Below are positions 17,148-48,448 of a stretch of DNA of 64,000 nt, in pieces (positions within the stretch are counted from its first letter, which is position 1; every line of letters starts with the position of its first letter). The notes beneath the pieces are model-generated. The model did no database searches. It was not told where the DNA came from and saw only the letters and a list, made by a program, of their open reading frames with translations. This DNA is from Pocillopora damicornis (lineage: Eukaryota), in assembly GCF_003704095.1 (NCBI RefSeq), contig NW_020844475.1, forward strand, positions 1 to 64,000, written 5' to 3'. A program made the position numbers and the translations under genes.

Positions 17148-20100
17148 ATGCTTCAACTGAGCCCTGTTCACAACTTGAACACTTTTTTCCGACTTGGTAT
17201 CCATTGTCTGGTTCAAGCTATCAACAGAGTTCATGTGTTTGGAGAGAAATTCATCAGTGAGGTAGCTGTTGTGGCAACAACAAAATGGAAGCTGATCTTG
17301 TTCATTGTTACAATAATGTACATTTTCTTCAAAGTACTGCAAAAGACACGTAAGTGGGTGCTGAAGGAAGTTGCTGATTCAGCCTAATATTTCACTTGAA
17401 GGCAACTTTTTGACCACATTTTAGTATAATTTATTCATAAACTGAAACTTCAGCAACTTTCTTTTCATATCACAACATTTTTTTGATACATGTACAAACT
17501 TGCACATTGTGCTGAAGAAGCCTGTTACCAGTTATAAATCAATTCTGTTACCATTTTAAGGAAAATGCTGTATATTATGGTGACGGACATACATGTAATT
17601 ATTCTCTCTTTGCACAACATGACTTTGTGTTACAGTTCACAAAGTCCTCCTTCAAAATATTTGGGAAATATTTAATTGTCAGTTAGAGACACAGTTAAGT
17701 GTTTAAGCATGGTAAGATTGTATAGTTTACCTGGCTAAGGGGGAGGAAGCCTGTTTGGATTGGTTACCAGATGGACCATCACTTATTAAAACCTGTTATC
17801 ACCTGGCAGTGGTTGCATGCCTTAGGATGGAATCTGGCTTTAACTTTTTGTAAACTATACAAATGTGAATTTTTTTTTGTAGCCAATGAACAAAAGAAAT
17901 TATCTCTAAACAAATGTTCCATTTACTATTAATGATAATTTTAGGTGAGGAGCTCAAGGCTACTGAGGAAGTAATTCTTATCACAAGATTATTTCAAATG
18001 ATCAAGGTTTGGATGCCCAATTGTATTAGCCATTTACACCATCATATTTATGATCACATATTTGCATGCAGTCAAGAAAATTACAAGTTGTTGAAAAAAT
18101 ATCTTGTGAAAAGATTGAAATTGTTTTTAAATGGTTTACTAGGACATTCAATTATTTTTCATTGAGACGTGTTGCTGATTAAGAAATTATCGCCATTTTT
18201 CTGTCATAGAACACGCAAAGGCCTGGAGTTACTACAGATATTATATCACTCATAGAAAAGCACAAGATTGATGTGAACAGGAAACACCCTAAATCAGAGT
18301 CTGGCCTAACTTTGTTTTTGGTGAGTTGTCCAAAACTGAACAATGTGTTCAGAAAAGATTGCAGCTTAGGATGTTGGGTTCAAAACAGTTGAAACTAAAT
18401 GCTACTGAGAATAATTTTAATAGTACAAAAATGTAAGGCATTATCTTTTAAAAGACAATGTACAAAGTTAGATTGTGTAATGTCAAAAGTGGTTGCCACA
18501 GAAATGGCAAGAAACTTGACAGTACCTTATTTGTTTAAGTCTCCTCAAACTTCTGTCTTGAAACTTTTCTAGTTATCCACTCTTTTGTATAATTACTGTA
18601 TATGTGCAATTTTTACTGTTGATTAATCAAGGATTTTGACTTATTATTAAGAAAACTATCTATAATGCTTATGTTTAGAGCTTATCTTTAAAAGTATGGA
18701 AACTAAGAATCCTACCTGTAGAAACTGTTTAAAATGTACCCAGGTAGAATTACAAAAAAAGTCATGAAGGAAATTTGTTTGAGACAAAAATCTGAAGATA
18801 TGAGTTTACTGCCTGGGGAAAAACGTTTGTAAAGCAAAGCTTGCTCCAACCTGATGCAATTGATATTTTATTAGTGATAGTACTTTTTAATAGATACATG
18901 TAACTAAAAATAATTTAACTATGTGCTTGGAAAAATACTTGAAATAGTAATTCAATGAAAAAAACTTACCAGATCTGTATCTTATGTATTGCTAGTGTGC
19001 CTGTTTGAGTGGGGACAATTGCCTTATTTTATACATGTTGAATAAAGGTGAGGAGTTTATCCCTTTTTTGAATTAATTAAGATATTAGTGCCTTAAGTAA
19101 AAGAATGGACAACTTTATTTCTCATAGTCTTTGATCAATATCAAACCTTTTATACTTTATCTGAATGTTCCTTGAATCAGGAGTTACCAGAAACCCTTCA
19201 CGTATCTTTGAAGAATAGGTTTAAAGTGAAAGGCAATCCTTTTTGGTGAAATAGGAGCAGGAGCTGACACTGCACTTTATTCTTTTTATATGATAAAATT
19301 GAATAACCTTTACATTTTATCTAAGAATAAATTGAAAAAGACTTGCATTTTTATAGGAGCTGATATAAATTCAAATACTTCATGCAAGGATAGTGCCCTT
19401 CATCTCGCTAGCTTTTTTTGTGGCACACAGAAGGTCTCAAACTGTCTTGGAGTTATAACCTCCTTGTTTGAAGCAGGTAAATTCCAGATGAAGAAAGCAA
19501 TACACTGATCTCAAGGTATAAATTGCATTATTTTTCTCCATCCCATCCTTGGGGCCAGGGTTATTTTGGATAGTAGACTTTCAAAGGAAAAATCTTGACA
19601 GGTTTCAATTCAAAATCAAAAAAAAGGAAAAATGCCAGGAAGTAACTAATATCAAATTATGACAGTTTTAGGCTTCCTCGTCTTAACCCTCACTTCTCAA
19701 AACAGTTTAAAGAAAAACTTAAATTTTTGGACGGACATTTCCTGAATGCTTTTGTAAATCAATTGTGGTTTTACTACGTAACGTTTTATTAAATTTGAAT
19801 TCTTTATCCTGGTTTACTTGATACAGCTGGGGGGTTGATAATACCAAGTTACGATAGAGCTGATTGACTATGCTGGTATATTTGAAAAAGAGACCCTTCT
19901 CCTACATCATTGGCCTTACCAAATAACTCAATAGTTATCATCTGTGTCAATTTTACTTTCCAGGGTGCGACATAAATTCTCAAAACTGGGTTGGTAATAC
20001 TCCTCTGACTATTGCTGCATCCTCCGGGAATTGTAACCTCGTGCAACACCTGATATCTCTAGGTATGGGTATAGTTTTCCGACTGGTGCTCGTTAACCAA

Positions 20101-21043
20101 AACCTCACAGCTTTTTTTGTAAGTTTTGTCGATTTCCCGGCATCGGGAAGGTTTCAATACATTCACGTACGTCAAATTTATGAAATTGAGTGTCTAAATT
20201 ACGACAAAGATAACAGTGGTTTTTTTTTTTGGAACTCGTTCTAAATTACGCTTAAGTCGCTGACCATGTAAACCTAACCCTAAGCAACTCTCTCCCTAAC
20301 CTTTTCTGGCATGTGCGAAATGTTTTACTTGTTGACGCGAATAGCACTCTTTTTTCGGAATTATTAGGTGCAGATAAGAGTCTTTGTACAAACGACGGAA
20401 TCTACCCCATGGACTTTGCAATAAATAGTGGTAAGTCCCTGGTCGTGTGTGGTTCCAGATTTCATGTTTTGAAACGTGGGGTGCAGATTATAACGCTATG
20501 TAGTTAAAAACGTACGTTCAATAAAGCGCTTTTTCCGCGTCCGGAATTTAATAAAACTAATAGAGTGGTTTGTTTTATTCCTCACCACGGATCGTAGGAA
20601 AGAAAAATTTATATTTCTAACACGATTAGGTGTTATCCCAAGGCTAGTCGATTAGACAATTTACTTTGGAAATAACAAAAAAGGGTTCCGCGACGCATAA
20701 AGCATTGATTACGTAATTAAGGTTGACCTCTGATATTTCGATTTTTTATCCCTTTGTTTGTTCATATCTTTTAACTGCATTAACATTGCCATCGTGACCT
20801 TTTGGAATGTTGTTAAATTCGTCTTCCCTGTGGACAGGTCATCTTGATGCAGCAAATTTGCTGGCTATTGCCGTTCCAAATCCTCATGTTTGGGACATCG
20901 TTGAACCCCATACTCCCCCAAGAGTTAAACTTGGTCTTCAGAGTCCTTGCAGGCAGCATCTGGTGAATTCTTCATTTCGAAGGAGTCGCATGGACTTCAC
21001 TAAGAAGCAACAACATACTGCACCAAGTATGATACGTTGTTAA
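17148..21043 (+). CDS. Ankyrin-repeat protein with an N-terminal hydrophobic (TM-like) segment; exons 17148-17349, 17945-18006, 18210-18320, 18996-19047, 19357-19476, 19964-20062, 20368-20430, 20838-21043 (~304 aa)
   Basis: GT-AG introns with continuous phase. Ankyrin motifs GLTLFLCAC, GADIN..DSALHLA, GCDINSQNWVGNTPLTIAA and GADKSL..GIYPMDFA..GHLDAA. Hydrophobic stretch WKLILFIVTIMYIFFKVL. The start codon is the least certain part. Confidence 0.8.
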
Positions 21044-22870: not shown

Positions 22871-25800
22871 ATGGAAGAAACATTTTTTGTAGTACTTCTG
22901 CTTGTCAATCTCGCCCTGGTTGTCAACTGGCAAGGTATGTTGTTTCACCTCCTTTTATAAATGTTAATCAACTTTCACTTTACCACGTCAACATCGATTT
23001 CTGGTAAAATTCAGTCGCAGCCTAAGCAAATTTGCCCGGTACACGCCTTGTATGTTTCTTTTCCTTTAATATTTCGGGTCGTTTCTTCCAGTTAGCGCTT
23101 ATTAACGATAACATTTAGAAGTCATCGTAGAGCTCAACTGCACGTGACATGTTTAAGAAATGTTTACAGTGTAACTCAAAATAAAAGTGTGAGTTCGTAG
23201 TCCAAGGATTGACAAGTGATCTCAAGGTTTACATTTAAAGAAAGTTCGATAATCATTTCCCATCTAGTTTTCAAATATCTTCCTTGACATCATTAAAAGG
23301 AAAGTTCTGCTCCAACGTGCCTGCTCTCGAGTGCTTTATGGCAGCTAACAATCGAAATTAAGTAGTAATAGTAATTTGAGTTGATAAATTTGCTGTCAAA
23401 GTTGGGATCGCGAGTGAACAATTCATGTTTACAGTTTTAAGTTGCGTTAATATCCACCACAAGTATTGTAGAGATGAGCGGCACGTTTTCGACGCGTATA
23501 TTTGAAATACCGAGAGACGAACTCTTTTGCATGCTATGTCCTTCGTTGACACTAACGTCAATCTTGTCTTGTTTATCTGTTATCAGGTGGTCAAGCACAA
23601 CTCATTGGTAAGTTACTCGTTTCGAGTAGTAAGTTTCAACCCTTAATTAGCATTTGTAACATTCATCTTTCGAATCGTGTTGATGATATGAAGCCATGAA
23701 AGGAGGTAGCAATAAGGTGTCAGATCAGATTTTAAAAGTGTGTTAATAGAAAGTAGATTTGAAAAAGCAACATCCAGGAGGCGTAATACATTTTGCGTGA
23801 TAATGTCTACTGATTGGGATGTTTGATCGGCACTTAAGATTTTAATATAGTCGTATTTCGTCTTTCTGTTTTTTCACCGAGGTCAAGGTATTCTGTAAAT
23901 TTCCAGCCTGATCCTTCGGATCGAAACTAGGGGGAGGGCACCCCAGTGTCCAGTGTAAAGGAGTTATTGGTATGTGTCAAGCTAGATTGAACAGAAATTT
24001 GATGTCTTCTCCCGAAATACAGTATAGAGTTTGAATTTGTCAAGTACATGTTTGCAAGCGAATCTCTTGGTCTGAGAGGGAAAATATTAGCGCTACCCTA
24101 AATCGCAGGTGCACCCTTCTGGAACATTCGTGAAATATTATAACCGAAACACTTCAAAGTCGGTTACTCCTTTGTAATCTATACTGTTTTTCACTTGTCT
24201 GTCGGGTCGCTCCATCCTCCCGCTCATCGTGACTTTCAACATGACCCGTCAATATAATAAATCACACCTGAAATGTCCTTCATTGAAAACTGTTTAAGAT
24301 TTAAGTGCATAAATGGCTCAGTAAGAGGCCTGCACACAAGTCAATTTTGATATTTGCACAGCTCATTTTAACTATACAAGTCAAATGTCGTGTGGGAATT
24401 TTAAAGCTAGAAGACATCCTTCAAACGGAACTTTTAGGGCAGATTGGTTCGTTTAAAATTGAATTAATCGAAACCTTTGTGTATGGTCGATCAGAAGGAT
24501 AACTCGCTCAGTGGGGGCATATTAGAAATGCAAAAAACTCGGTTAAAGAATTGCGCAAACAAGATCATCTTGTCAGATATGTAAATCAAGTGAGGCCAGG
24601 TATGCTACGCTAATTTAGTTTATCGTCGCATATCTGGCCTCACTTGATTTACACGTCTGACTTTATAGCACTATGCTACTCAAGGACAACATTGAACTCT
24701 TGATAAAGCTAATCTTGGTTTTCCTAATTAAATAACAAAAGCCGTTATCGATGTCTTAATGCTTAGTAGATATGTGCTTAGGAGTAACTCTTGTAAGAGG
24801 CCACCCAGTGTATTCTGTTTCCTTATCCTTTTTTTTTTTGTCCCAATGGTCTAGGACTTAATTTTACCAAGAATATTGCGGAATTTCTCACAAAGTTTTG
24901 TCTTCGGTTAGAGCTGAAATATCTTGGGAAGAGTGCGTGTGGTTTTAAAGGCAAATTTGCAGCCTGATTGTATCCCTCTGCGTTGAAATAGGTGTTAACG
25001 CACCTCGTCTCAAAAAATATTTCTTTTCATTTTGCATTCGCCCAAGATATATTGTTAAGGTGGATTAAGATTAGCACGTTTTGCATTATTTGAAAGGTAT
25101 AGTGAGAATAATAATGCAATCAATTTTTTCAATTCCTAATTACGTTGTTTTTATTACCCTCACTTTGTTCTTTAAACCCCCAACTGCTTTTCTCCAGAAT
25201 TGTTTATTCTATTGAGAGCGGGTTTGTGTACTGATAAGTTAATGATTTTCTCTGTTTTGTCTTCATTTCATTTGCTTCTGCTTTGTTCAGATCAGGCTAT
25301 TTTTGCATCTAAGTTGTTACGACAATATTTATACATTTTGAATCAAAAATCGCAAGAGGTAAATTATCACACCTTTAAGTAAGAACAAAAATTATTCGGC
25401 ATATACAAAGGTTGAAACTAAACTTATCGGCTTGTACTGATTTCTTTCAGATGACTGTGGCGGACTTATCGAAGGGAGAGGTGGTATCATACAGACACCA
25501 AATTATCCTTTGAACTACCCAGTGGATAAAGTTTGCGCATGGGTTGTTAAAACCGAACCGGGTGACAAAGTCGTGCTTACTTTTGAAACGTTTGCCCTGG
25601 AAGACAACTCTGTTTGCCAATACGATTACGTTATTATAAGGGATGGTTCGACCTCCAAAAGCCCTATGATTGGGAAGTTTTGCGGCACAAGCAGACCAGC
25701 CACCATTACCTCTACGGGCAATTTCCTTTGGATTGGTTTCCGATCAGATTCGTCCACTACCAAACAGGGCTTCAAAGCAATGTGGAAGGCAGAAAAGCTT

Positions 25801-28800
25801 TCCGAAAAGCCACCACCAGGTACCGAAGAAAAAGTGACTACGCCTACTATGCCTACAGGTTTGTTGATTTATCTGGCTCTTTTTCTCACTAAAATTCTTT
25901 GAAAACTGCTGCAAAGCGCAGATTGTAGATATTTGTTCGAAATCTTAAAATATCTACCAGCACTTCCTCAGCGAGGCTTAATCGTGGTCAACGCTGAAAT
26001 GTCTCTACGGGCCTTCTGTATTTTGCGTTAGTGGCTCTTGCATGGTTACCAGTCTACCTGGACCGGTGGTAATTTTTCGTCGTTCATTAGGAATGTTTCG
26101 GTATAATTGCCTCTCTTATTCGTGAACATGTAGAGAAAGTGGACGAAATGATGAGGCCCGTATGAAAGCTCGTTGTCACGAGGCACCTAAAGAGCACATA
26201 TAAATGTATTTCCTTGTTGATTTTGTAACAGACTCTTTAAGGACTGATGTGTAGGATGCTTTTTTTTCCTTCTATTTTGGAAGTTATTCGCTTTATATTG
26301 TTTGTTTTCTTTCTCTCATGAAATTGTCTCCATTAATTTATTCATTAATTTTTCTTCAGGATGCGGTGGCCAAATGACTGGTGATGGTGGGAATTTTACA
26401 TCACCCAACTATCCTGAATCGTACTCAAAGAACAGCGAGTGTGTGTGGACAATAGTTGTGCCTCTCCAAGACACGATTGAGCTTACTTTTCACGAATTTC
26501 ATTTAGAAAATTCCGGAAGTTGTAATTATGACTTTGTCGAAGTTAGACAAGGTAGCACTCGCTTCTCTGAAATAATTGGAAAATTCTGCGCAAGTACGAT
26601 CATTTCACCTTTCAATTCAACTGGAGATTCCCTTTTTATAAGACTTGTCACTGATGGAACAGTCAATGAGAAGGGTTTTAGGGCTACATGGAGAAGGATA
26701 TCTCATTACATTCCTGCAAATCAAACGGCTCAGTCGTCCACAACCACCAAAGCTACACCTTCAATTACACCGCCTGAAAGTAAGCAATATTTTCTGTTAT
26801 TTTCTAGATTTCTAATTTTTACTGAACTAGAAATTAATTGCCGTTAGCGAGCAGTCAACCTTTTATGATTTTAGAGTAAACCATTTTTGTGTATTAACAC
26901 GCATTCTTCCCCTTTTTTACTTGATAGATGTTTGTTTGTTTGTTTTTTTTTTTGCTGAAACCCCAGTCGTCAAACCTTCATACCTAATTCTATACTTCCT
27001 TACTTTTTTCTCCTCATTTTTCTTTTCATATGTATTTGTTTACATTTTATGTACGTTATTAAGTTATTTGTTTTTATCCTCAGAGTGCGGAGGAATTTTG
27101 AATCAAGAAAACGGTGAAATAACCAGCCCAGGTTACCCTAACCAATATCCACTAAACCTAGATTGCATTTGGGTAATTTTGGCACCAAGTAATCAGGTCA
27201 TCCAGGTAGAATTCAGATCATTTCAACTCGAAAGACAATCCAGATGCCTGTATGACTATTTGGAGGTCAGGGATGGCGATAGATCAGACATGCCCTTGCT
27301 TGGGAAATTCTGTGGAGATGTAGTTCCTTCCCCCGTCAAATCTTCTCAAAACGCAATGTACATAAAGTTTCACTCAGACGGTTTAACTCCAAAACGAGGA
27401 TTTCAGCTTAAATGGCACGCTTTTAAAGGACAGCCGCTACCACCTGGGCCTGCACCGACGTCAGATGGGGACCCCGGTAAGTAAAATCACGCAAACAAAG
27501 GGTGAATTTAACTATAGATATTCATTGGAATTCCTGGGAAATATCGTTATTCTTTGGAAATAATCAGTCAATTACTGAATTTATTTTTACGATAGGCTGG
27601 TTGAAATTTTTTTGGCACCGAAACAAATTTCTTCTCACATCTATTACTCTACAGTTTGTGGTGGTACTTTCACCAAAATGTCTGGCGTTATAAAGAGCCC
27701 TCGCTATCCCAAAAAGTATCCAGAGGATGTAATGTGTCAGTGGGTCATAAAACTATCACCACAATACAAAATACGCTTAGAGTTCATGTACTTGCAAGTG
27801 GAGAAGAGCACAAGCTGCCAGTATGATTTTGTGCTCGTTATGGATGGCCTCCCGACTTCTCCAACTACTCTCGGGAGATTTTGTGGCAACTCAAGCAAGC
27901 CGGTGGTAGACTCAACATCCAGTGAAATGACCGTTTTCTTTAAGTCTGATATGAGCGTGACAGACAAAGGATTTGAGGCATACTGGTATGCCCATCCAGT
28001 TCTAGGCACTAAATCTCCGTCAACCGAAGTAAACGTGATTGGTAAGTATGATTTATTTCTCCAAATATTTTGAATATCCACTAAGTGTAAACTTCCTGCC
28101 ACATTTCATGTCCCTCTCATTTGCAAAATGAAATGTTCATTCTTCAGGTTGACAAAAGTCATTGACTAGGTGGGCGACATTCCACTGGGAGAGTGACTAG
28201 ATGAAAACTGGTTCTATAAAAGTTACCCGTAGATAAATGGCGGTCCAAGACATTTATAGTAACGATGAGATAAGGGTCCTGTTACCGCCTATAAGCGCAT
28301 TATTTTTTGCACTAGATGACATGACAAACAATTGTGTGATTCATTGTAAAGATATAACGGTTTTAATAATCGTCTTTTACTTTATTAAGAGCCGTGTGGT
28401 GGAAAACGTATGCGTCCAAGTGGTGACATCTTCTCACCATACTACCCTGCCTTCTCTGGTGCCCAAGGGCCTGTTGACTGTGTATGGGTTATATCTGTAT
28501 ACGAAGGAAACAAAATTGCCATTGGTTTTAACGAATTTGATCTGAACAGTGACGATAACTGTGTTACGGAGTACGTGGAATTGAGGGACGGGCCATCAGA
28601 GACGTCTCGTCTGCTAGGACGCTATTGCATTTCTGCACCGATGGTGGTGCGAGGTTCTACGGATACATTATGGATGCGTTATTATACAATTGGAACGGGA
28701 AGTAAGGGTTTTGAAGCAACGTGGACTACTATGAAGCAAACATTAAAACCTATGAAACCTAGTGGGAAGCCTTCGACGGGATCTGTTCCTCATCCACCAA

Positions 28801-31800
28801 GTAAGTTCCACCCAATGATTATGCCAGTTCAATTCTCCGTTGGATTCTAACAAGCATACGTATACACAGGGGAAAGTAATATACTGAATCGAGCGATAAA
28901 AACTACTCTTCAAATGCATTAGCTTTTCTCGCTGCCTAAGGTGATTTTTAAGATTTTATTAAGTTTTCAATTAGTCTTCAACAAATTGAGAATGAGACGT
29001 TTTCAACGCCCTCACACGTAAACCGTTTTTTAAAGAATGTCTACGTGATTCTCAGCTGCATCTTAAATAATGTTTTTAGTAATAACATTAATATGCGTGT
29101 TAGCCTAACTGTTTCTCCAATCAACATTTCACTTGAGTAGTATTTCCACTAATTGCTAATTTATTTTTCATCCTGAACGATGCGATTTCTTTTGTTCACA
29201 ATATTAGGTGAAGAATACACTGTTATAGAGCCAACTGATTATCGCTTATTTTTTGATAAGGTTTTTCGAACTTATTGATCTTGTACCGGTCGCAATACTC
29301 TATTGTGTCTCTTGGCTCATAGTTTAAAAACTGTTCCAATCTGCCTTGCAGTAACTCCGAGAATAAACACCGTTACTATTCTGTTTGAGTCCAATCCTGT
29401 TTTAGTTTCATTACCCATATATATATATATATTTACATAAACGATGTCTTTTTTAGAAAAATGCGGCGATGCACTAGGTCTTGAATCCGGTGAAATAAAA
29501 AATAAACAGCTGTCGTCATCTTCCACGTGGATGGGCATAAGCACCTTTGGTCCGCAGCATGCAAGACTCAATAACAGTAAGTGGCCCCAAGGCTGGAGTG
29601 CTGATACAACTGACCAAAATCCTTGGCTCAAAGTCACGTTTCAATCGGATTACGTAATTACTGGCATTGCAACGCAAGGTTATGGTAATCCAGTTTTCAA
29701 TGAATGGATTGAGAGCTATTATTTGCTTTGGCTTGACAGCAAGGCTGGAGAGGTGTATTATCACGAAGATGGAAAAGTGAAGGTAGGTGACAGAATGACT
29801 CTGTACCGATGGTGGTTTTTTTTCATATTTTTTACATATGGTTTACCACTCGTGATATGTATCAGCAAAAAGAAGTACCCCTTTGCTTGAGATACACAAC
29901 CTCACTTCATACAGTAAATGGCTCCACCAGTAACTTCGATGAAACACCGGCTCGATTCACGTGCCGAATTTTATAAGAAATTTACAGGCATGTTTTTTCT
30001 ATTATTATTATTTCAGGCATCCCTTTTTTAATCATTATTATTGCACTATTTTTATGATTTTTTGTTTTTTTGTTTCTTGCAAGCTTAATTACGGCTGGCT
30101 GATTCATTGAGTTATGATTATAGTTTCTTTATTCGGTTTGATCAAAGTGGTAAGTTTCGTATCTTAACCAAAGCCCTAGTATCTTCAAGGTTATACAGGG
30201 CACCCAAGCCATTGTCTTTCTGGTGAATGTTTTAATTGTGTTTGACTCACAGGTTTTAGATGGTAATAGTGATCACAACACGATTGTACGCCATATGCTG
30301 AAGGAACCCTTCATTTCTAAAGAAGTAAAAATCCAACCAAGAAGTTGGAAAGGTGGTGTGGGCTTGCGATTAGAACTCTATGGATGTAAATTTGGTAAGC
30401 CATTATTGTAACATTAATTAGAGAATTTCAATTCGGCCTACTACTTTTGATTGTCGCTCATTTTTACTTCAAATTCACAACTAAGTTAACCTTAAAAGAA
30501 GATGTTTTTCGTCTTGTCACTAACGTGGGAGAAAGAAAAAATTCTGAGTCCCCATGAGGAATCGAACCTCAGACCTTCGGATTCCGTGTTCCAATGCTCT
30601 ACCACTGAGCCACAGAGACTCCACCGTGAGCGAGGTCGGTTACGAAGTTCTCCCTTTTTTTATGAGGAAAGCTAGCTATACTTCTTTGCCCTATTTGTTG
30701 TATTATTGCGCACGTTTTTTAACAGTTTATAAGAATGGTTTTATTATCCTTTTTTGCTGTTGTTTTTTTTTTGTCATATGCAGACGAATGTCAAGAGCCT
30801 CTTGGGATAGAAGACCCGGATATTATTGAAGACGGACAGCTAACAGCCTCTTCCGCATGGGAGGATGATCATGACAAGTTCGGTGCCCAGAGAGGAAGGC
30901 TCAATTTGAATCGCTGGCCTCAAGGTTGGACGGCAAGCGTAGAGGATCGTTCCCCTTGGTTTCAAGTAAACTTGAAGCACCCTTTTATAATAACGCGGGT
31001 GGCAACACAAGGCTATGGAGGATCCGTTGATCAGTGGGTGGAGAAGTACCGAGTGTCATGGAAAAGTGAAGAAGAAGTTTGGCGTAATTATTCCGTTCCT
31101 CGTCAGGTGAAGACTTCAGCCGTCCTTTGGAAGAACAAGGTGATAATTACATGTTAACCGTAGATACTGTTTTAAAATGAGACTAAGCTCATTTTCATCA
31201 TCGTCAAGTCCTATAGTTCATAGATTGATCGCTATAAAAATCAATTGTATCATTTCGTCTCTCATGTAAAAGTTTGGTGCTCCCGTGTGTTTTTGATCTT
31301 TTTTAACTAACCAACCGCAAATACAAAATTGTCAATTTTCGTGTTCTTTATGTTCAAGTTTTGAAAGTTTAGCACTCCTAACAGTGAGATGAACAGAGTT
31401 GTTTCTACGCTTGCAGTGTGTATACGGTGTGATAAATGACGAATGAATGAACAAATAACGCTTAAGACATGAAAAGATTTTTACTGTCTTCAAACGAATT
31501 TATATCATTCATTCCTCAGGTATTTCATGGAAATAAAGACAGGAATTCAGTGATATCTCACACTCTATGGAACACCATTAAGTCAAGCACGCTCCGATTT
31601 TGGCCAATGGTTAAACGTAACTTTGTTTCTATGCGAACAGAATTGTACGGGTGTATGACAGGTCAGTATTTCTAGTCTAAAACGTCGAACATCAGTTCTT
31701 TATAAGCCTCTTGTTTTGGATCGTGTCTTCTCGATAATAAGTCTATAAGAATCTGTCATTTTTTTTAGTATTTTTAGCACTATACGTTTTGCTGTGAGAT

Positions 31801-34089
31801 TTGTTTTTCTGTGGTTATTAATCTTGTATCTCACTTGATTGCTAATCATACACTATACAGACCAATCGCGATCCGCAACCGAGTGCTCAACAGTTGGCCA
31901 TCGTATGAGTGGTGAATCAAATCCGCCCAGCAGAAAAGGTTGCCATTGGCATGTCACTTCTTCAAAGGCGGAGAGCACAGTAACGCTGAAGTTTATAACT
32001 TTTGATTTCTTAAAAAGCGATCCTTCATGTTTGAAAGACTACGTTGAAATCAGAAACGGCCTTACTAAACACGCTCCTCTGATAGGAAGGTATTGCGGAG
32101 ACAAGATACCTGCTCCCGTGCAATCCTCGGGAAACGGTCTCTGGGTGCGTTATGTGGTGTCAGGTGATATAAAAACCAAAGTTGGCATGACTTATCACGA
32201 CGGTCCTTCTAAGTCTTCTCAGGGTGATGAAGGGAAGAAAGGTACACTTACAATGGCGAGTTCTTTTGTTTGCCTGTTACTTAAATGAACTAGGGGTACA
32301 AAAGCCTGAAACGTTTATTGTTCCTGTGTAACCAAATTGATATTAAATGCAGCTTTCGTTTAGGGAGAATGGTTGGTCACCATGAAATAACAATAAAGCA
32401 CGTTTTATCATTGACAGGTAAAAGCGCAGGAAGAATTTCATAAGTCTGTTCACCCGGAAAATGACTGTTGGTGATAAGTTTATCAATGGTCATATTTTAT
32501 CTTAAATGTTCGTGAACGATAAAGATGAGATTTAATGATTTTTACCTGGATGGTAACAAAATGGTTAAATTTAAGATTTGTGATGATTCATAATTTTAAA
32601 GAGCTACCTGTAAATAAAAAATTTTCATAGTGTGTTATGACTTGACAACGATTTTGAATGTCCACTTTTTTCTTATTTATTTTCACATCAAAAGCCCATA
32701 TTACTCCCTATACTAATATCGGATCGTTTTGCAATTCTCTGATTCCTTATCTCTCCAGGATGCGGTAATCTAAAATATTCTGTCTCTCCGTGGGAGTCCG
32801 ATGGAGATTTACCAAAGCAGTGGCCTGGCCGATGGCCCTGGCAGGTAGCTCTTCTGCTTATGGGACAATCTGTTCAGCAGTGTGGCGGCGCTCTCCTTGC
32901 TCCTCGATGGGTACTCACCGCAGCCCATTGCTTCAAAAGGTATTAAAAATTTATTCAAAGGTGCTCGTTTTTTCAGCTACAGGTGAAAAGGGTGCCTCCT
33001 TAAAAATAGAAAATATTTAATATGAAGATTTATCATATAAACTATGGTGTTATACAAGGATTTCCAGCCATGAGAAAAGCCATAATAACACATGTGAAAA
33101 AATACGATATTTTTTCACGTGTGTTTTATATCGCCAATCAGCTGCTGATACGTCACTCGCTTTTCGTGCCACTCGATCAGGTTGTTGAATGAATGGAAAA
33201 GCCTTCACGATTCTCAATACAAGGTAGTTTGTCGGAACGTTCTCGAATTATAGCGGCTAAAACATTTAAAAATCCGTATCGCTCACAGACGGTGACTTTC
33301 AAACTTTCCTAGAAGGGAAGATGAAACCAATGTACGAAAATAAAAACCGAAAGTTACGTGTTCGGTGACTTTGGAAATGGCGTTTCTCGCGGCTGAAAAC
33401 GAAAATCGACAACTGGAAGATTTGCCATAGGCCGATTTTGGCCGTTTACCTGAAAGACTTTTACTGTCGGTAAAGAAAAAGTCAATAAACCACAGACTTT
33501 CGTTTGCAGGTTTAAACAACCTCTTCAGTGGGTCATACGGGCTGGAGAGTTTGATCTCGCGAAAAAGGAAAATTCTGAGCAAAATATACGAGCAGAAAAA
33601 ATATATGTTCATTCATCATATATCCCGTCAACAAACGAGAATGATATCGCTCTGGTATACCTTGAGCGAGCAGCACAATTGAACGATTTGGTGGAAACGA
33701 TATGTCTACCAGATGAAGGAGAGCTACAGCTCGAGAGCAAGTGCGCTGTAGCAGGTTGGGGTTTTAGGCCGGCCAACGTCCATCATACATCTACCCCGCT
33801 GAGGTCCCAAAGAGTGCCCGTTGTTTCCCGCCAGGTCTGTAACGGAGCCAATGCATACGGTGGTCTTGTGAAAGATAATATGATTTGTGCAGGGTATGAG
33901 AGGGGTGGCGAAGACAACTGTTACGGAGATGGTGGAGGCCCTCTCATGTGCCAGAATTCGGTAGGAAAGTGGTTTGTTGGTGGAATTAATAGCTGGGGAC
34001 AAGGCTGCGGACTGCCTGGCAAATATAGTGTGTACACCTATACGGAGAGGTATCGTGACTGGATAAACCGTCATATGCAAGCAGACTAA
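22871..34089 (+). CDS. Secreted mosaic protein: signal peptide, 5 CUB, 2 F5/8 type C (discoidin), CUB, inactive trypsin-like domain; exons 22871-22934, 23587-23607, 25451-25858, 26360-26779, 27084-27476, 27655-28041, 28390-28800, 29457-29782, 30253-30394, 30784-31139, 31520-31661, 31861-32241, 32759-32939, 33510-34089 (1403 aa)
   Basis: Signal peptide [25 protein letters not shown] motifs CGG..SPNYP..C.W..C.YD...G.FCG..SD..GF. FA58C motifs LGLE, ARLN, W..PWL, IATQG and LRLELYGC. Trypsin motifs WPWQV, CGGALL, LTAAHC, DIAL, MICAG and GDGGGPL. Exons total 4212 nt in frame. Confidence 0.92.
24572..24661. repeat. Imperfect 42-bp-arm palindrome (MITE-like) in intron 2 of the CUB gene
   Basis: gtcagatatgtaaatcaagtgaggccaggtatgctacgctaa versus the reverse complement of the right arm, 5 mismatches. 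Confidence 0.75.
30501..30650 (-). mobile_element. tRNA-derived SINE
   Basis: Minus strand gagtctctgTGGCTCAGTGGtagagc...gaGGTTCGATTCCtcatggggactc has Pol III A and B boxes and a cloverleaf-like head, but an aberrant anticodon arm and a non-tRNA tail. Confidence 0.8.
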
Positions 34090-37000
34090 CTGTTCTCACT
34101 TGCGTCAGATAAAGGAATGGTGAATCAACTTTTGAGTCCACACTGCAAAATACCAAATTATAAGGGCCTGCGATTGGCGCTTGTCGTGGCCGGCTCATCC
34201 CGTTCGATTTCGGGAGGGATTACATCCAAGTAAAACATAGTAGTAGCTATGAAAAGGAACGTGTAAGTCGCTTTCAACGTTTTGCAACTGACTAAAACAT
34301 ACGTTTTGTTGTTCAGATAAGTAATAGGCTGTAGCCAGTTAAATATATATTTTTGACGTAATCACAATTCAATTTCGAAAATGTGAAACTAATTTTTAAG
34401 GGCTCATCGTTTCGGTATTAGTAATGGAAGAATAATGGGACGCTGTGAAGTTTAGCGAGGTCTTAATTAAACGAGCCGTTTCGAACGGAGCTTGATAATA
34501 CAATTAAACCAATCGAATTTTCCTTGAGAGGATTCAAACGTAATGCGATCTTTGTGACCTTGTGGATATGAATGGTTAGTCAACGTCTACAGCTGTAAAA
34601 TTCTATATTTACCTAATTGTACTTAGCTAAAATGTAGTTTCACTGTGATATAATTACTGAAGTGTTTCCGGTCTTTTTTTTTTTTTTTTTTTTGAATAAG
34701 GCACCCTTCAGCCCTTTGGTCTCCTACGTAATATGGCAGTTAGCTTGTATCCTTTTTTTCTTTGTGTGAAAATCTATGGTTTCCTGAATGTCGAGGTATT
34801 TTTTCCGATGTACGTAATCTTTTTTTAATCTCGTTTACAAGGGCTCTCAACCAAGTTACGCCATGGCGTAGAAGCCATGAGCGATAGTTATCGGTGTTCT
34901 ATTTACGATACTGCTGGATTTATGAGTTTCATATCAGGACGTGATTAACACGTCGTCTTAGAGATTTCTTAAACCTAAGGAACCCCAATTATCATTGGAA
35001 TCTAAATGATTTCTCAATTCGTTTAAAAGGTTTCTTAAAATGCTTTATTTTTTTTGCGACTTCTTTTTTTCTCTTGGAAGGATTTTTGTGATGGTTAGAA
35101 GTTCGATTCAGCAGCCTTTCAAATGTCACTAAACGACATCAACATGGTGAAGGCTTAAATGAGAGATGATATTGGGAACGTTAGCTTAGTTTTATGGTAC
35201 CATGAATGATGTTACTTGTTCAAAACGTCTATCAGATTGGTATGCTAGCGGACTAAATTAAATATGAAAAGTTGCGAAAGGACTTATCTACCACATGTAG
35301 TGGTAAAAATAATGCCAGCTGAAGTAAACTGTCAGGAATGTGCAGCTGATTGTACATGCAACATCATCAAAAAGTCAATAATTTATATTGATCGTTTGTC
35401 TCGCAATATTAACCCTTGGGACGGTTCCCACGGTCACGAGAAAAGCAAAGAAAGCAATCTTCTAAAGAGAAATCTAACTAACCGCTTTGCTGAAGGTCCC
35501 TTGTTATAAAAGGGAAACCTTTGATTTCTGTGTCATCCGCTGACAGAAAGCGGATCTGTCTAAATCACCGGAAAGCCGGCAAAGACATACTGAACAAGAA
35601 TTTATTTAATATATACATGTAATACTCGATCCCAGACGAAATTTTCGAGTTTGTCATCTCTTTTTTGTTAAGTAATAATAGAATCCTAGATAAGAATCGC
35701 GTCGTTTGGACCGTCTACGTTTGGTATTCGCTTTCGCTGGACTACGATTGGCTGATCTGTCTTTCATTATAATGAGTAGTCGCTTGAAGAATTTTTTCTG
35801 TTATGATATCGTCATACATGTTGAGCTCGTGCGTTGACGAGTTGTTCTTGCCTCAGTAACGTGGCTCTAATCGCTTTTTCACTTGCCGCACGTAGACTTC
35901 TGAACTTCATATGTTTGGATCGTTTACCATCTACTTTTGTCGCTGTTCCGTTTCCACCAACATTAGACAAAGTCCATGTTTTTCCGGATATTCGACATGG
36001 CTCATAAAAGAGAAGTACTTGTCATCAAAGATTTGATCTGTGTCCAAGGAAAGTCTTTTTAAGATTAACAATCAATACAAGTTTATAGCAACGACAACAC
36101 TAGCCGTCGGATTCATCTCAGCTTATAAGGAGTAAGTAGAGGATGTAACCGTTTGCTATAAAACATTAATTTTTTTGAATTGCTAACTTTTAATCACACT
36201 GCAAACGAAAATACTTGCCATTGATTAGGTAGATAAAATCAAAGTCAATCAATAATGCTATGGCAATTGTTCAACAATTATATTGTGCTTTACGCAATTT
36301 AACCTTTGTGTTAAGTTTCTTTTTTTTTTTTTTTTCAATTTATTTTAAAGAATAGCAGATTTATGTCATGTGATTGTGTTGCCCTCTCGTGTTATCCCAT
36401 AACATTCAAGCCAACAAATGCGTCAGGTTTTCAGATAATTAAGAAGTGTGCTCTAACAAGCAAAAACAGCTCAAGTTGCACTAATGCCATCGACAATCCT
36501 TTCTGTCGAATACTAACAAAACTCTCACATTCAGCTCTGGTCATCGAAGTTCTTTAAAAGACAACAAATGAATACAATTATTACCTCTTGCCTGATTTCT
36601 TGATTCCTCTCAGACGATGAGCGATATTTAACAGCCCAGCTTGATATTTGAAGTATGCCTTGTTCTAAAAATAACGTACAGCTTTTAACCATTTTAACCC
36701 TATTTCGTTTCAAAGACTATTTCTTGTTACTCATGTCATTAAAGAGACAGTTTTGTCTCCTTAGCAGTGTGCGAGCCAAGGGAGAGCCTTAGATCCACTG
36801 TCGCCATGTATTTTATCCCTTTTCGGTACTCGGAATGGTTGAAAAAGAAAACTCGAAACTATTGTATTTGAAAAGCACTCTAATGAGATTTAAATTCTAG
36901 TACCCTTTGAACAAAACTTAACGTGAACACAGTCCGAGTATTGAGTTCGTCCTTTACATAATTCTTTGCCGTCGGACGTGCAGGCTCTTTATGGGTGTAG

Positions 37001-38157: not shown

Positions 38158-39891
38158 AGAGTTAATGTTACCTCTCAGTTGAGCGAAGTACAACAGATTG
38201 TATAGTTTTTCTGTCGAAACGTGTTTCTGATGTTGAGTTAAGTATATTATTTTAAGTATTGACGATTACACGCAAATTTTTACGGTCCCTGGGAGACATT
38301 CTTCTCGATCCTATAAATCCTATGAAGGAAAAAAGGAACTGTGGAGGGCAAAATATCGTACTGACGTATACCTCAGCTTTATGCGTATTCTGTCGCGGTA
38401 GTTCACGAGTCAAGAGAGCGATATTTTGTTATTTGATGAACGATTTTGAAAAGGTTATCCGGTGTTTAACTTTAATCCCTCCAGGACATATATATTTTTA
38501 GTTGGATGTTAAATGGTTTTCACTGCTTTTCTCATGCTCAAAGCAAGTCGGTCTTTAAAGCATTAATTTAGACCTCAAGCGCACAAGGTCGAAAACAGTT
38601 TTAGCTTTGTATAGGCGCCCTTTCGAAAGTTGAGCGGAGCAAGTCTCACGTGGGCTACAAAGCTGGGTAGGTACTTTCACATTGTCGTACATTTCTTTGT
38701 GAGATTGATCTCCTGGAGAAAGGAATCGTGCTGACAGTATTGTAACAATCTTACGAAGAGCGTGGCCGGGTCCAAAGTTTCTTTGGCACGTGAAAGAAGC
38801 GAGTTCAGTAAATTGTGCATTTGTAAAAGACAGCAGGGTATTCCCTCTTTTGAAAACAGCATAGACATAAAACATGATGACATAGCATGTTGCTTGATAT
38901 TTCAGTGATATCTTATTGCCCTCAAGGTTTCTTTTGCCATCCCGATTGAAGCGCACTTTGCGCTTGACTGATCTGCTTGTAAGTTATCATCAAAGCGTAT
39001 AGTTAGCCAATCTTACACTTTTAGAAGAACTAACTTTTTATCGTCATGATTCCTTTCAGATTCATTGTTACAAAAAAGGGAACATAAACAAGTCCACCTA
39101 CTCCGCTAACAACGTACCCTGAGGTGAGTGCTATATTTGGTAATTTTCATTTCTATTCTTTGTGGTAAATAGGTCAGATATATTTAAGCAAATTTACTAG
39201 TCTTTGTCGATATTTGGAGTTACGAATGAGGTCTCCCACGTGCCCTGTCGATTGCTTTCCATATGCCTTTCCACCAACAGAAAAGCATGTTGAGGGTGGA
39301 TTTTTGTCAAAGCGACCATGTCTTAAATTCTTTCCTCATGTGATGGAGCCTCAAACGGGAGGCCTTTTTGGGTAAACGTTGGCGAATGAACCTTGTTTGG
39401 TTACTGGAATTTAAAACATGATTGTCATATCCAAGACATTGTGCGAAAAGATTACAGCTAATTATGAATCGTTTTGTTATGATAATTTGTCAAAACTCAA
39501 AAATTTTTAACTTTGTCGTCCTTTTATTTAAGACAGTGGGTCGGTGCGTGAGTGAAATGTCAGGCTCTAAGTTGTTTTTAAGCAGATGGCACAGTGAAAT
39601 ACCAAAGTTCGTGTCATTTGAAATCATTTGGCATTGAAATCCGTACGAGAAACATTGAATTAGGTGAACGCATGCACTTCACGATTGAAATAGTTTGTCT
39701 TAAGGTGTTTGTGTTAAGTGGACCAGTCTACTGTAAATATGGCTGTTATTTATAGGCCATGTGTAGTTTTATTTATCTTTATATATTTTTTTTCAAACTT
39801 TGTGTGCAAAAATATTAACTCAGTTATAACGATGTGCCTTTCGTCATGCATTTTTTGGCAGGGCAGATCTTAGCCAGGAGGATAAAGATCA

Positions 39892-42388
39892 ATGGATCTG
39901 TTCCTTACTTTCCTGCTTTTTGCAGTACTAGGGACAACGTATGTGTGCAGTATATACGCTGAACTGATCAAAGAAGAAAACGGAAAACCCGCCAAGTGGT
40001 CCGACCTGACCATTACAGAAACCCAAGTGGAAAATGATGTAGGGACTCTATTTCTTAACATAGAAGAAGAAAGCAATTCGTTAGAAGAATTTGCTGAAAA
40101 AGTCCTTTCGGCCTTCACACCAACCAGAAAGACTTCCGGGCATGGCCTCTCCATAAAACAAGTGCATTCCAGCCAAGGTAGACGGAGAAGACAAATCTTT
40201 GGAGAGGACAACCGAGTTAATATGCGAACTTCTCTCGAAGCTCAGATGTATCCGTTCTCCACTGCAGTGATGCTTTCTTCCGGTTGCACTGGCACGCTCA
40301 TCGGGCCTGAGCACGTGTTGACAGCCGCTCACTGTGTACACGACGGCAAAAGACACTTAAAAATTGCCAAACGACTAAAAGTTGGTGAGTGATTAGACTT
40401 ATTCCTTCCTTAAGAATTGTGCAACATCTCTGGTACGAAATTTATTTGATCTTTATTTACAAGGTCTCATGTAACAGCCGGGCTCACTATGCAGTATAAT
40501 TCACTGATGTTAAAAAATCAATTTAGGTTACACCGGGTCGACTTTGCTAGAATATTCAAAATTATAAAATCCATGTTATCAATTTGACATGGTTGAGATT
40601 TTGTTAGCGTATTTTCAATCTACGGTCTCTGTCTATTTTAACGTGTCTTGTATTCCTCCCACTTCTTTACCAATTTTTGCTCTGTTACATTAATTTGTGA
40701 GGTTGTCACATGACTTCAGGAGGGCTATTAACTTCTCAAGGACAAAGCTGAAATCTTGAATTAAAGCGATACGACAAAATTGAAAAGCATCCTTCTTAAT
40801 GGTTTGTCAGACGAGTATGGCTCCAGCAAACAAAGACCCCACTTGACGACGTTTGTTTTGATTCGTCGTGAATAACGCCGGACAGTAACACTAAAATTAA
40901 TATGAGATTATTGAAATTAGTACCCTGTTATATTGGCAAGTGAGGCGTGCTGTGGGGGCGTGGAGCTTGACTAAGACCATTGCGGAAAGTGGAATGAACG
41001 TCATCTACTTAGAATCTTTTTCATAAGCATTATTCAAACTAAATGTCTGGGAGAATTATATACAGTTATGTTCTTGATTAGCTTGTTTGTTTTGTTCCTT
41101 TGATGCGTTTGCTCGTTATTAAGTGTCTCTACGGTAATCGATGAAAACCTCAAAGTTTTGAAGCATTCCAACAATGTAGTATTTTCGTGACATTCAATAG
41201 TGCGTGAAATAAAGCTACCCTCAGGTGCACATGTACCATACCTTAAACGAATGTTACGCTTTCTTTGCGAATTTGCTTTTGGAGAGAATGTTGGTCTAAT
41301 TCAGCTAAACACTGGACGGTCTCAATTTGACGCCGAATGTCTTCTCAAAGATTGTTTGGAAATTGTTTAGAGTGATGAGATACCTTTCAACGGCAAGATG
41401 TTGATTTAAGCAAACTGGAAAAATGTAAACGGTTCCAGAAATTTGAGATCATACGCCTGAAAAAATTCTAGGAAATCAAGAGGAAGAGCGGAATAAAATC
41501 TTGCATTTGCGATGTGCCCAAACCCCGTCATTCATTACAAACTTTCTTTTTCTTTGAGTTTCTGTTTTCGAGAAGTTCGTCTGAAGCGTCTCGAACCACA
41601 TTGGCCGTTTTTATGCTAGAGACGTTAAAGTTGTCTAAGACGTTAAAGTCGTCTCTTAGACAACTTTAACGTCTCTAGCATAAAAACGGCCATTGACTGT
41701 CTTTAGAGCCATTAAGTGCACTTTGTTTTTGCCACCCATACGTATTCTTTGAGAGCATATTTTCGACAAACCGAACCAGTGTACTTGAGGTACTCATCTG
41801 AATTATTCATAACTTTCTATCATTCAGATATCAGTAATGTTTTCGTAACGTTCTTAATTAAGGTCATCGATTCTTTTTTTTTTGTATGCTAATACAACTT
41901 TATTTCCAGGTTTGCTCCAGCGATCAGGAAAGTTCCACTGGATCCAAGTGAAGAGAAAGTTTATACCTAAAAAGTGGAAGAAACAGACCCAAACAAAAGA
42001 GAGGCTGAGATACGATTTTGCAGTTTTAAAACTGAAGCGCAAGCACTCAAGAAAACACATGTCCGTGCAGATAAGCAGTCTTCTTCCCGGTTCGAAAATT
42101 CAATTCTCTGGTTTTCATGGTGACAAATGGTACAATTCATTGTGGTACACATATTGCTCTGTATACAGAAAAGCGAACGACATGATTCTCAACTTTTGCG
42201 ATGGAGTTAGAGGCGTCTCCGGCTCTGGAGTTTACGTAAACTCCCCTAGTCGCCATGAGAGTGCGGTAGTTGGAGTGGTTTCGGCAATAGTTCGCGGAAA
42301 AGTCAAAGGCAAAGAGTTCAAATTTAATGTTATTAATTCCTTTACCGGCACTAAGGTACGGCAGATCTCAAAGTGGGTCCGGCGTTAG
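39892..42388 (+). CDS. PRSS23/PRSS35-like secreted serine protease; exons 39892-40384 and 41910-42388 (323 aa)
   Basis: Signal peptide, furin-type RRRR|QIFGEDNR, YPFSTAV.LSSGCTG.LI..HVLTAAHCVHDG, YDFAVLKL and CDGVRGVSGSGVY match the PRSS23 family layout. H, D and S of the catalytic triad are all present. Confidence 0.9.
41603..41691. mobile_element. 89-bp perfect-hairpin MITE (Harbinger-like) in the PRSS23-like intron
   Basis: 38-bp perfect inverted arms ggccgtttttatgctagagacgttaaagttgtctaaga, a 13-nt loop and a 3-bp ATT duplication on both sides. Confidence 0.8.
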
Positions 42389-48103: not shown

Positions 48104-48448
48104 TCAGTTGCATGTTCTGCAGGCACATCTTTTTGCCACTGGATAGCGAATCACTTTCCTTTCCCCCCAACAGGTTACCGTTTTTTCTTCAATAGTATCT
48201 TCGATAGGTGCACAGCACCCACAACTCGAAGCAAATCCAGTTCCATAGCTGAAAGGTTTCGCCGACGACAAGCAGCCGCCTCGACAACCAAAAGTTGTAA
48301 TTCTGAAGCTACAGTTGGCCTTCCCCATGATGAGGTAGCCTTTCGATTTTCGGCAGTCCGAAGGTTGTTGTAGTCTGTGGGTCGATTTGCCCGTGGTGGC
48401 GGCTAATAGTAACACAACAACCATGACTTGGGTAACGGAAAACAGCAT
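48104..48448 (-). CDS. Secreted cystine-knot hormone-like protein (glycoprotein hormone/bursicon superfamily), single coding exon, 114 aa
   Basis: ATG at 48448 lies just after an acceptor (TCAG| at ~48459); the track's start at 48454 is a TTG. Signal peptide and 11 Cys in the pattern C-x13-C..CRGGC..CGCC..C..CACRTC. An NCS sequon is present. Confidence 0.88.
   Translation of the reverse strand: MLFSVTQVMVVVLLLAATTGKSTHRLQQPSDCRKSKGYLIMGKANCSFRITTFGCRGGCLSSAKPFSYGTGFASSCGCCAPIEDTIEEKTVTCWGERKVIRYPVAKRCACRTCN

What the first reader, a model, noticed from the sequence alone, without database searches (positions are those of the whole stretch)
32759..34089. Catalytically dead trypsin domain on a large CUB/discoidin protein
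Seen: His (TAAHC) and Asp (DIAL) are retained, but GDSGGP reads GDGGGP (GGT codon at 33931-33933). The zymogen activation motif R-IVGG is replaced by [12 protein letters not shown]. Both losses in an otherwise intact ORF argue for an evolved serine protease homolog rather than a sequencing error. Established: such homologs act as cofactors or binding scaffolds, for example HGF, haptoglobin and arthropod clip-SPHs in prophenoloxidase activation. Inference: a secreted non-enzymatic scaffold, decoy or recognition protein in coral immunity or extracellular/skeletal matrix.
Basis: partly seen in the sequence, partly recalled or inferred. Interest (0 to 1): 0.7.

Follow-up and report, generated by a model that had tools for sequence, protein, structure and literature searches.

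The report
Ancient disarmed protease shared by anthozoans
Stony corals and sea anemones share a large, transcribed and conserved gene whose trypsin-like domain lacks both the cutting serine and the usual switch-on site, so it likely works outside the cell as a binding scaffold rather than an enzyme, a known strategy in animals seen here in a protein with its own domain layout.

Summary
Codon 33931-33933 is GGT (Gly195) in 4 of 4 independent DNA contig sets; an RNA contig has the synonymous GGC. RNA joints give a 14-exon, 1403-aa protein: signal peptide, 5 CUB, 2 F5/8 (discoidin), CUB, trypsin-like domain, no membrane helix. It is single-copy in this Pocillopora-type genome. Orthologs occur in Pocillopora, Stylophora, Acropora, Montipora and the anemones Nematostella and Actinostola. 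All 23 rows of the clade (SH-aLRT 94) have Gly195, none of the full-length orthologs has an R-IVGG site, and Nematostella has deleted the segment. dN/dS is 0.08-0.18. His57, Asp102, Asp189, Asp194 and the cysteines are kept, while positions 99, 192 and 213 of the cleft are changed in a clade-specific way. So this is an old anthozoan serine pseudoprotease, most likely a secreted single-chain scaffold or cofactor that binds partners through CUB arms and the remodelled cleft. The partner and tissue are unknown. A skeleton-specific role is unlikely and an immune role has no support here. S195G homologs are common in animals: a new member of a known kind, of modest interest.

The parts
22871..22934 (+). 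Coding exon 1: start codon and predicted signal peptide
   Evidence: RNA joint 22932>23585 in 4 of 4 runs; the only hydrophobic 19-residue windows are at residues 1-6
23587..23607 (+). Coding exon 2 (21 bp)
   Evidence: RNA joints in 4 of 4 runs, model
25451..25858 (+). CUB1 exon, acidic calcium-type motif present
26360..26779 (+). CUB2 exon, acidic motif present
27084..27476 (+). CUB3 exon, acidic motif present; absent from ortholog P0002
27655..28041 (+). CUB4 exon, acidic motif present
28390..28800 (+). CUB5 exon, acidic motif degenerate
29457..30394 (+). F5/8 type C (discoidin) domain 1, two exons (29457-29782, 30253-30394); hydrophobic loops at the positions of the factor V/VIII C2 spikes
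30784..31661 (+). F5/8 type C domain 2, two exons (30784-31139, 31520-31661)
31861..32241 (+). CUB6 exon, acidic motif degenerate
32759..32939 (+). Protease-homolog exon 1: Cys1, degenerate activation segment (32761-32832), His57 (32926-32928)
33510..34089 (+). Protease-homolog exon 2: Asp102 (33643-45), Asp189 (33913-15), Gly195 (33931-33), Ser214 (33991-93), Tyr225 (34024-26), stop
33931..33933 (+). GGT codon, Gly in place of catalytic Ser195
   Evidence: GGT/GGC/GGG in 9 of 9 ortholog loci

Best explanation
This transcribed, conserved 1403-residue gene of stony corals and sea anemones has a trypsin-fold domain that lacks Ser195 and the Ile16 activation site, and it likely encodes a secreted, non-catalytic scaffold that holds partner proteins, probably an active extracellular protease and its substrate or inhibitor, on a matrix or cell surface. 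Shown: gene structure, expression, Gly195 in the whole clade, loss of the activation motif, purifying selection, S1 fold. Predicted: secretion; a zymogen-like, single-chain domain that needs no cleavage. Inferred from known families: CUB1-4 bind Lys/Arg residues of partners through calcium-held acidic sites, the discoidin pair docks on a surface, and the remodelled cleft (Asn99, aromatic 192, Gly195, Asn/Ser213) is a partner-binding site. The partner and tissue are not identified.
For: Spliced RNA contigs span all 13 introns (12 joints in 4 of 4 runs, the last in 3 of 4), and a full-length 1403-aa transcript product exists (P0001). Gly195 in 33 of 33 proteins aligned and 23 of 23 clade rows versus Ser in 26 of 26 active paralogs. 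One clade, SH-aLRT 94 (quick tree). dN/dS 0.08-0.18 (NG86) for window versus 9 loci, with the Gly codon varying only at the third base. The dead domain is as conserved as the other domains (43-72% beyond pocilloporids), while the activation linker is 8-33% and shrinks from 24 to 8 residues in Nematostella. S1 fold: Z 26.9, rmsd 2.3 A over 222 residues. Low model confidence falls on the activation segment and the three activation-domain loops. Pseudoproteases act as ligands, cofactors or scaffolds (PMC13194640, passages).
Against: No partner, tissue or phenotype data. Low pLDDT may only reflect a 26-sequence alignment, and the five models differed widely (74 to 33). The S1-pocket residues are kept (Asp189 21 of 23, Gly216 21 of 23, Gly226 17 of 23), which fits a trap with a formed pocket as well as a zymogen-like scaffold. 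The CUB6-protease model has pTM 0.59, so no fixed arrangement is predicted. The CUB calcium motif and its Lys/Arg binding are recalled, and the signal peptide rests on hydropathy only.
Confidence: 0.55

Rival explanations
1. Substrate or inhibitor trap: the uncleaved domain adopts an active-like shape and binds Arg/Lys peptides or protease inhibitors in S1 without cutting them, acting as a decoy.
For: Asp189, Gly193, Asp194, Ser214, Trp215, Gly216 and the 191-220 disulfide are kept. His40 is absent (Gln or Arg) and position 156 is Arg in 14 of 23 rows, echoing the Lys156-Asp194 bridge of single-chain tPA (PMC13194640).
Against: Arg or Lys156 also occurs in 8 of 26 active paralogs and is absent from the anemone rows; Asn/Ser213, aromatic 192 and Ser226 (5 of 23, including this species) alter the pocket; the loops are low-confidence in the model.
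Confidence: 0.2
2. Secreted signalling modulator: the CUB4-CUB5-F5/8-F5/8 block works like a neuropilin ectodomain, or the dead domain like the HGF beta chain, binding a growth factor or receptor.
For: Top PDB matches of the Acropora ortholog are neuropilin-1/2 by sequence (E 1e-63) and by fold, with the same domain order. A Nematostella gene called Nrp2 marks one endomesodermal segment (PMC9882047, passage), identity unknown.
Against: No MAM domain or membrane helix; the first discoidin alone is closer to factor V/VIII (E 1e-16) than to neuropilin (7e-12); rmsd above 20 A means the domain arrangement was not matched; CUB and F5/8 domains are shuffled freely (99 F5/8 matches in this genome).
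Confidence: 0.1
3. Immune recognition protein or melanisation cofactor, like arthropod clip-domain homologs.
For: Same S195G change as in a clip-SPH found in the search (P0005); CUB-protease proteins include complement components.
Against: No clip domain; clip-SPHs need proteolytic cleavage (PMC6901238, abstract start) and no canonical site exists here; the clade does not group with P0005 or the C1s-like rows; single copy under purifying selection.
Confidence: 0.09
4. Skeletal organic matrix protein of stony corals.
For: Other CUB-plus-peptidase proteins occur in Acropora and Stylophora skeletons; 'cubilin-like' proteins are mentioned in a Desmophyllum skeletal proteome, and RefSeq names this gene cubilin-like.
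Against: Orthologs in skeleton-less anemones; XP_022807247 is not in the Stylophora skeletal table, whose CUB-peptidase is another accession.
Confidence: 0.04
5. Sequencing error, recent pseudogene, or a still-active enzyme using another nucleophile.
For: His57 and Asp102 are kept; GGT is one transition from AGT.
Against: Confirmed in 4 of 4 DNA runs; Gly in all orthologs; dN/dS about 0.1; no Ser, Thr or Cys at 195; the activation switch is lost too.
Confidence: 0.02

Closest known systems
Arthropod clip-domain serine protease homologs (PPAF-II, masquerade type)
   Same: Secreted S1 fold with His and Asp kept and Ser195 changed to Gly (P0005)
   Different: No clip domain; CUB and discoidin arms instead; no canonical activation site; independent origin on the tree
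Protein Z
   Same: Pseudoprotease cofactor acting on a surface; that it needs no activation cleavage is recalled
   Different: Gla and EGF domains (recalled) versus CUB and F5/8; no partner known here
HGF/MSP and haptoglobin
   Same: Dead S1 domain used as a binding surface
   Different: HGF and MSP are activated by cleavage to two chains; different accessory domains
PAMR1 (inactive serine protease with CUB; recalled)
   Same: Secreted CUB-bearing protein with a dead trypsin domain
   Different: One CUB with EGF and Sushi domains (recalled), not six CUB and two F5/8; no PAMR1 among the hits
Neuropilin-1/2 ectodomain (a1a2b1b2)
   Same: CUB-CUB-F5/8-F5/8 order; best PDB matches
   Different: No MAM, no membrane helix, extra CUBs and a terminal pseudoprotease
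Nematostella trypsin NVJ_137929 (Babonis et al. 2019, PMC6767649)
   Same: The only DGGSP entry of 72 proteins, secreted, flagged 'likely non catalytic' (supplement file 1, part 1)
   Different: Listed motifs TTAHC and DIAV differ from TAAHC and DLAV of P0008, so identity with the ortholog is possible but not shown; not discussed in the main text
Coral skeletal CUB and peptidase domain-containing proteins (B8V7S0, B8VIV4, XP_022780694)
   Same: Coral proteins with CUB and S1 domains
   Different: Different accession from the Stylophora ortholog XP_022807247; described as proteases; sequences not compared here

Membership tests
Active S1A (chymotrypsin-like) peptidase | Chymotrypsin fold and conserved disulfides | tested here: met
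   Pfam Trypsin E 1.5e-59; Z 26.9, rmsd 2.3 A, 222 aligned; Cys122, 136, 168, 182, 191, 220 in 23 of 23
Active S1A (chymotrypsin-like) peptidase | His57 and Asp102 | tested here: met
   Asp102 in 21 of 21 rows that cover it
Active S1A (chymotrypsin-like) peptidase | Nucleophile Ser195 | tested here: not met
   Gly in 23 of 23 clade rows, 9 of 9 loci
Active S1A (chymotrypsin-like) peptidase | Activation site giving an Ile/Val16 N terminus | tested here: not met
   Absent in 7 of 7 full-length proteins shown; present in 8 of 8 paralog rows shown
Serine protease homolog (S1 pseudoprotease) | S1 fold with a lost catalytic residue, kept under selection | tested here: met
Serine protease homolog (S1 pseudoprotease) | No measurable peptidase activity | not testable with these tools
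   needs an assay
Serine protease homolog (S1 pseudoprotease) | A binding partner and non-catalytic role | not testable with these tools
   no candidate partner was identified
Clip-domain SPH | N-terminal clip domain | tested here: not met
   Pfam finds none in 4 of 4 orthologs but does in control P0005
Clip-domain SPH | Ser195 to Gly with His and Asp kept | tested here: met
Neuropilin | CUB-CUB-F5/8-F5/8 order | tested here: met
Neuropilin | MAM domain and membrane helix | tested here: not met
Neuropilin | Common descent of the four-domain block | not tested
   no domain trees were built
Cubilin (RefSeq name of the orthologs) | EGF repeats and about 27 CUB domains (recalled) | tested here: not met
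   6 CUB, no EGF
Coral skeletal organic matrix protein | Detected in skeleton proteomes | tested here: inconclusive
   absent from the Stylophora main-text table; supplements of other proteomes not seen

The most novel reading that the evidence does not exclude
An anthozoan-wide, cleavage-independent cofactor of an extracellular protease cascade: a factor V / protein Z-like surface-docking organiser built from a neuropilin-like CUB-CUB-F5/8-F5/8 block and a dead trypsin, fixed before corals and anemones split. It would show that pseudoprotease control of protease cascades, or a neuropilin-type module, predates bilaterians.
Probability: 0.12. Interest if true: 0.65.

Novelty: new member of a known kind. 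Interest (0 to 1): 0.32.

Why it matters
Databases name these orthologs cubilin, neuropilin-1 or uncharacterized, and a domain scan would count them as proteases; they are none of these. A single-copy pseudoprotease kept from anemones to reef corals has a real job, and Nematostella makes it testable by knockout. If it organises a protease cascade it would be an early example of a regulatory device known from blood clotting and insect immunity. By itself an S195G homolog is ordinary: the same genome has a second, independent one.

Tried and rejected
Sequencing error and pseudogene: rejected. Tyr225 and the AGY serine codons as a sign of descent from clotting or complement proteases: rejected as uninformative, since Tyr225 is in 20 of 26 active paralogs and AGY Ser195 is the commonest paralog codon; no active sister paralog is resolved on the tree. 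The representative search was crowded by multi-trypsin proteins and gave only 3 clade members among 150 rows. The ESM Atlas gave no hit at 0.9 or above. Discoidin spike control: loop 1 of the first F5/8 domain has 4 hydrophobic residues against at most 3 in the 25 other domains that could be parsed of 29; crude, a lead only. The hole in RNA run X17 over the last exon is not used as evidence. Earlier findings of the scan: nothing by sequence, place or words. No complex was predicted because no partner is motivated beyond adjacency. Accession search for 6 ortholog ids found 0 papers; other searches found no paper on this gene family. The careful tree did not finish; the quick tree is used.

Full report
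Observation. The window reads GDGGGP at 33925-33942 with GGT at 33931-33933. His57 and Asp102 are present. Contigs from 4 of 4 DNA runs laid cover the last exon with no differing letter; one of them may be the source sample. Among RNA runs, X19 has a third-base change that keeps Gly and X16 matches at that place. The activation motif is absent: counting from the WPW motif, positions 15-19 read S-D-G-D-L, whereas 8 of 8 paralog rows that include this region have an IVGG-like motif.

The gene. RNA contigs from 4 runs (3 studies) give 13 GT-AG introns; 12 joints are seen in all four runs and the last in three. The 14 exons (22871-34089) translate to 1403 residues without a stop. Pfam finds six CUB, two F5/8 type C and one trypsin domain, in the order CUB x5, F5/8 x2, CUB, trypsin. 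The only hydrophobic stretch is at the N terminus, so a signal peptide and no membrane helix are predicted. A near-identical full-length protein is on record (P0001, 99% in the last exon), and its cluster holds named proteins of Pocillopora meandrina, P. verrucosa, P. damicornis (pdam_00017196) and Stylophora pistillata, annotated as cubilin-like or uncharacterized. The genome search found 72 trypsin-like matches; the best other match is 43% identical, so the gene is single-copy.

Conservation. Full-length orthologs with the same C-terminal layout were found in Acropora, Montipora, Actinostola and Nematostella, and last-exon fragments in unnamed records. All 33 proteins aligned have Gly195. 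In a quick tree of 62 rows the 23 Gly195 rows form one side of a branch (SH-aLRT 94, below the 95 mark; the careful search did not finish), with the anemones as their own group; two paralog loci without a parsable motif were left out. Nine ortholog DNA loci of the 29 returned were used; dN/dS against the window is 0.08-0.18 (NG86) with dS above 1.3, and the codon is GGT, GGC or GGG. Close pairs give higher, noisier values (up to 0.42). The domain is as conserved as its neighbours, whereas the activation linker is 8-33% identical beyond pocilloporids and is cut from 24 to 8 residues in Nematostella. The loss therefore predates the coral-anemone split (several hundred million years, recalled). 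Among 36 exon variants classified (only part of the table was shown), 20 are synonymous and 16 not; the four in the last exon are three synonymous and one Arg to Lys.

Anatomy of the dead domain. It has the S1 fold (Z 26.9, rmsd 2.3 A, 222 residues). Against 26 active paralogs, the clade keeps Asp189 (21 of 23), Gly193, Asp194, Ser214, Trp215, Gly216 (21 of 23) and the disulfides, but differs at 99 (Asn 18), 192 (aromatic in 20, Gln in 20 of 26 paralogs), 195 and 213 (Asn 16, Ser 7, versus Thr or Val) (numbering assigned from motifs). The AlphaFold model (pLDDT 74, pTM 0.59) is uncertain in the activation segment and in the loops that are disordered in zymogens; that fits a zymogen-like state but could come from the shallow alignment. 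Loss of the Ile16-Asp194 switch is itself strongly inactivating (PMC13194640, passages), so two independent defects point the same way. CUB1-4 carry the acidic residues of calcium-binding CUB domains and CUB5-6 do not (motif recalled). The first discoidin has hydrophobic loops where factor V/VIII C2 domains bind membranes (role recalled), a weak lead.

How it most likely works. A secreted single-chain protein that does not cut, and whose conserved, remodelled cleft and CUB arms bind partners, most plausibly bridging or regulating an active extracellular protease on a matrix or cell surface (0.55). The main rival is a trap with a formed S1 pocket (0.2). Neuropilin-like or HGF-like signalling (0.1), an immune cofactor role (0.09) and a skeletal role (0.04) follow. 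That it is a real, selected, non-catalytic homolog is far more certain (above 0.9) than any of these roles.

Comparison with what is known. It works like other S1 pseudoproteases and meets the sequence definition of one, but it is not a clip-SPH, a neuropilin or a cubilin (membership table). Babonis et al. 2019 (PMC6767649; passages and part 1 of one supplement) list a secreted Nematostella trypsin, NVJ_137929, with DGGSP as likely non-catalytic and expressed in three adult metacells; it may be the ortholog, but two listed motifs differ. The Stylophora ortholog is not in the skeletal table of PMC7115838 (passages). Passages of PMC3748352, PMC4890752, PMC12549020, PMC12960093, PMC13581030, PMC9882047, PMC8846589, PMC6374515 and bioRxiv 2026.03.24.713908 do not describe this gene; PMC6901238 was seen only as a listing. 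A search for six ortholog accessions found no paper. The library lacks most subscription papers, and supplements of the cell atlases and proteomes, which I could not see, may hold its expression or detection.

Verdict. Confirmed and conserved; a new member of a known kind with a domain layout that my searches found only in anthozoans. Interest 0.32, higher if a partner or cascade is found.

Noticed in passing
window 39892-42388 (+): Next gene downstream is a two-exon PRSS23/35-like protein: signal peptide, RRRR then QIFG, triad motifs kept but Val at the Asp194 position, the pattern reported for the pseudoprotease PRSS23. It lies downstream of the ortholog in loci L032, L033, L035 and L037 too. 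The family label is by resemblance.
   Followed up: partly
window 39019-39718, also 35371-35436, 36174-36307, 38647-38761: Conserved stretches between the two genes: 74-78% identity over 600-700 bp with L032, L033 and L035, as high as the exons. Possibly regulatory or an untranslated exon.
   Followed up: partly
L022 (G000:C1169:472342-472872): A second dead trypsin in the same genome: Gly195 (GGG) and His57 also lost; groups with an active neighbour in a tandem cluster, so an independent loss.
   Followed up: partly
window 33029-33460 and 30532-30650: High-copy repeats inside introns (very high contig depth).
   Followed up: no
window 48107-48478 (-): Cystine-knot protein exon (Pfam Cys_knot E 1.6e-6).
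   Followed up: no
window 19927-20504 (+): Exons of an ankyrin-repeat gene upstream.
   Followed up: no
P0302, P0304, P0244 (unnamed records): Deepest members of the Gly195 clade, 43-46% identical; P0302 and P0244 show the same exon start after His57; organisms and domain layout unknown.
   Followed up: partly
P0002, P0132, P0006: Layout varies: P0002 lacks CUB3, the Montipora second discoidin has a degenerate first loop, and the Actinostola model has a long low-complexity insert that may be an artefact.
   Followed up: no
window 32213-32786: A low-depth RNA contig (6-9 versus 114-376 for the spliced joint) retains the intron before the protease-homolog exon in three runs.
   Followed up: no
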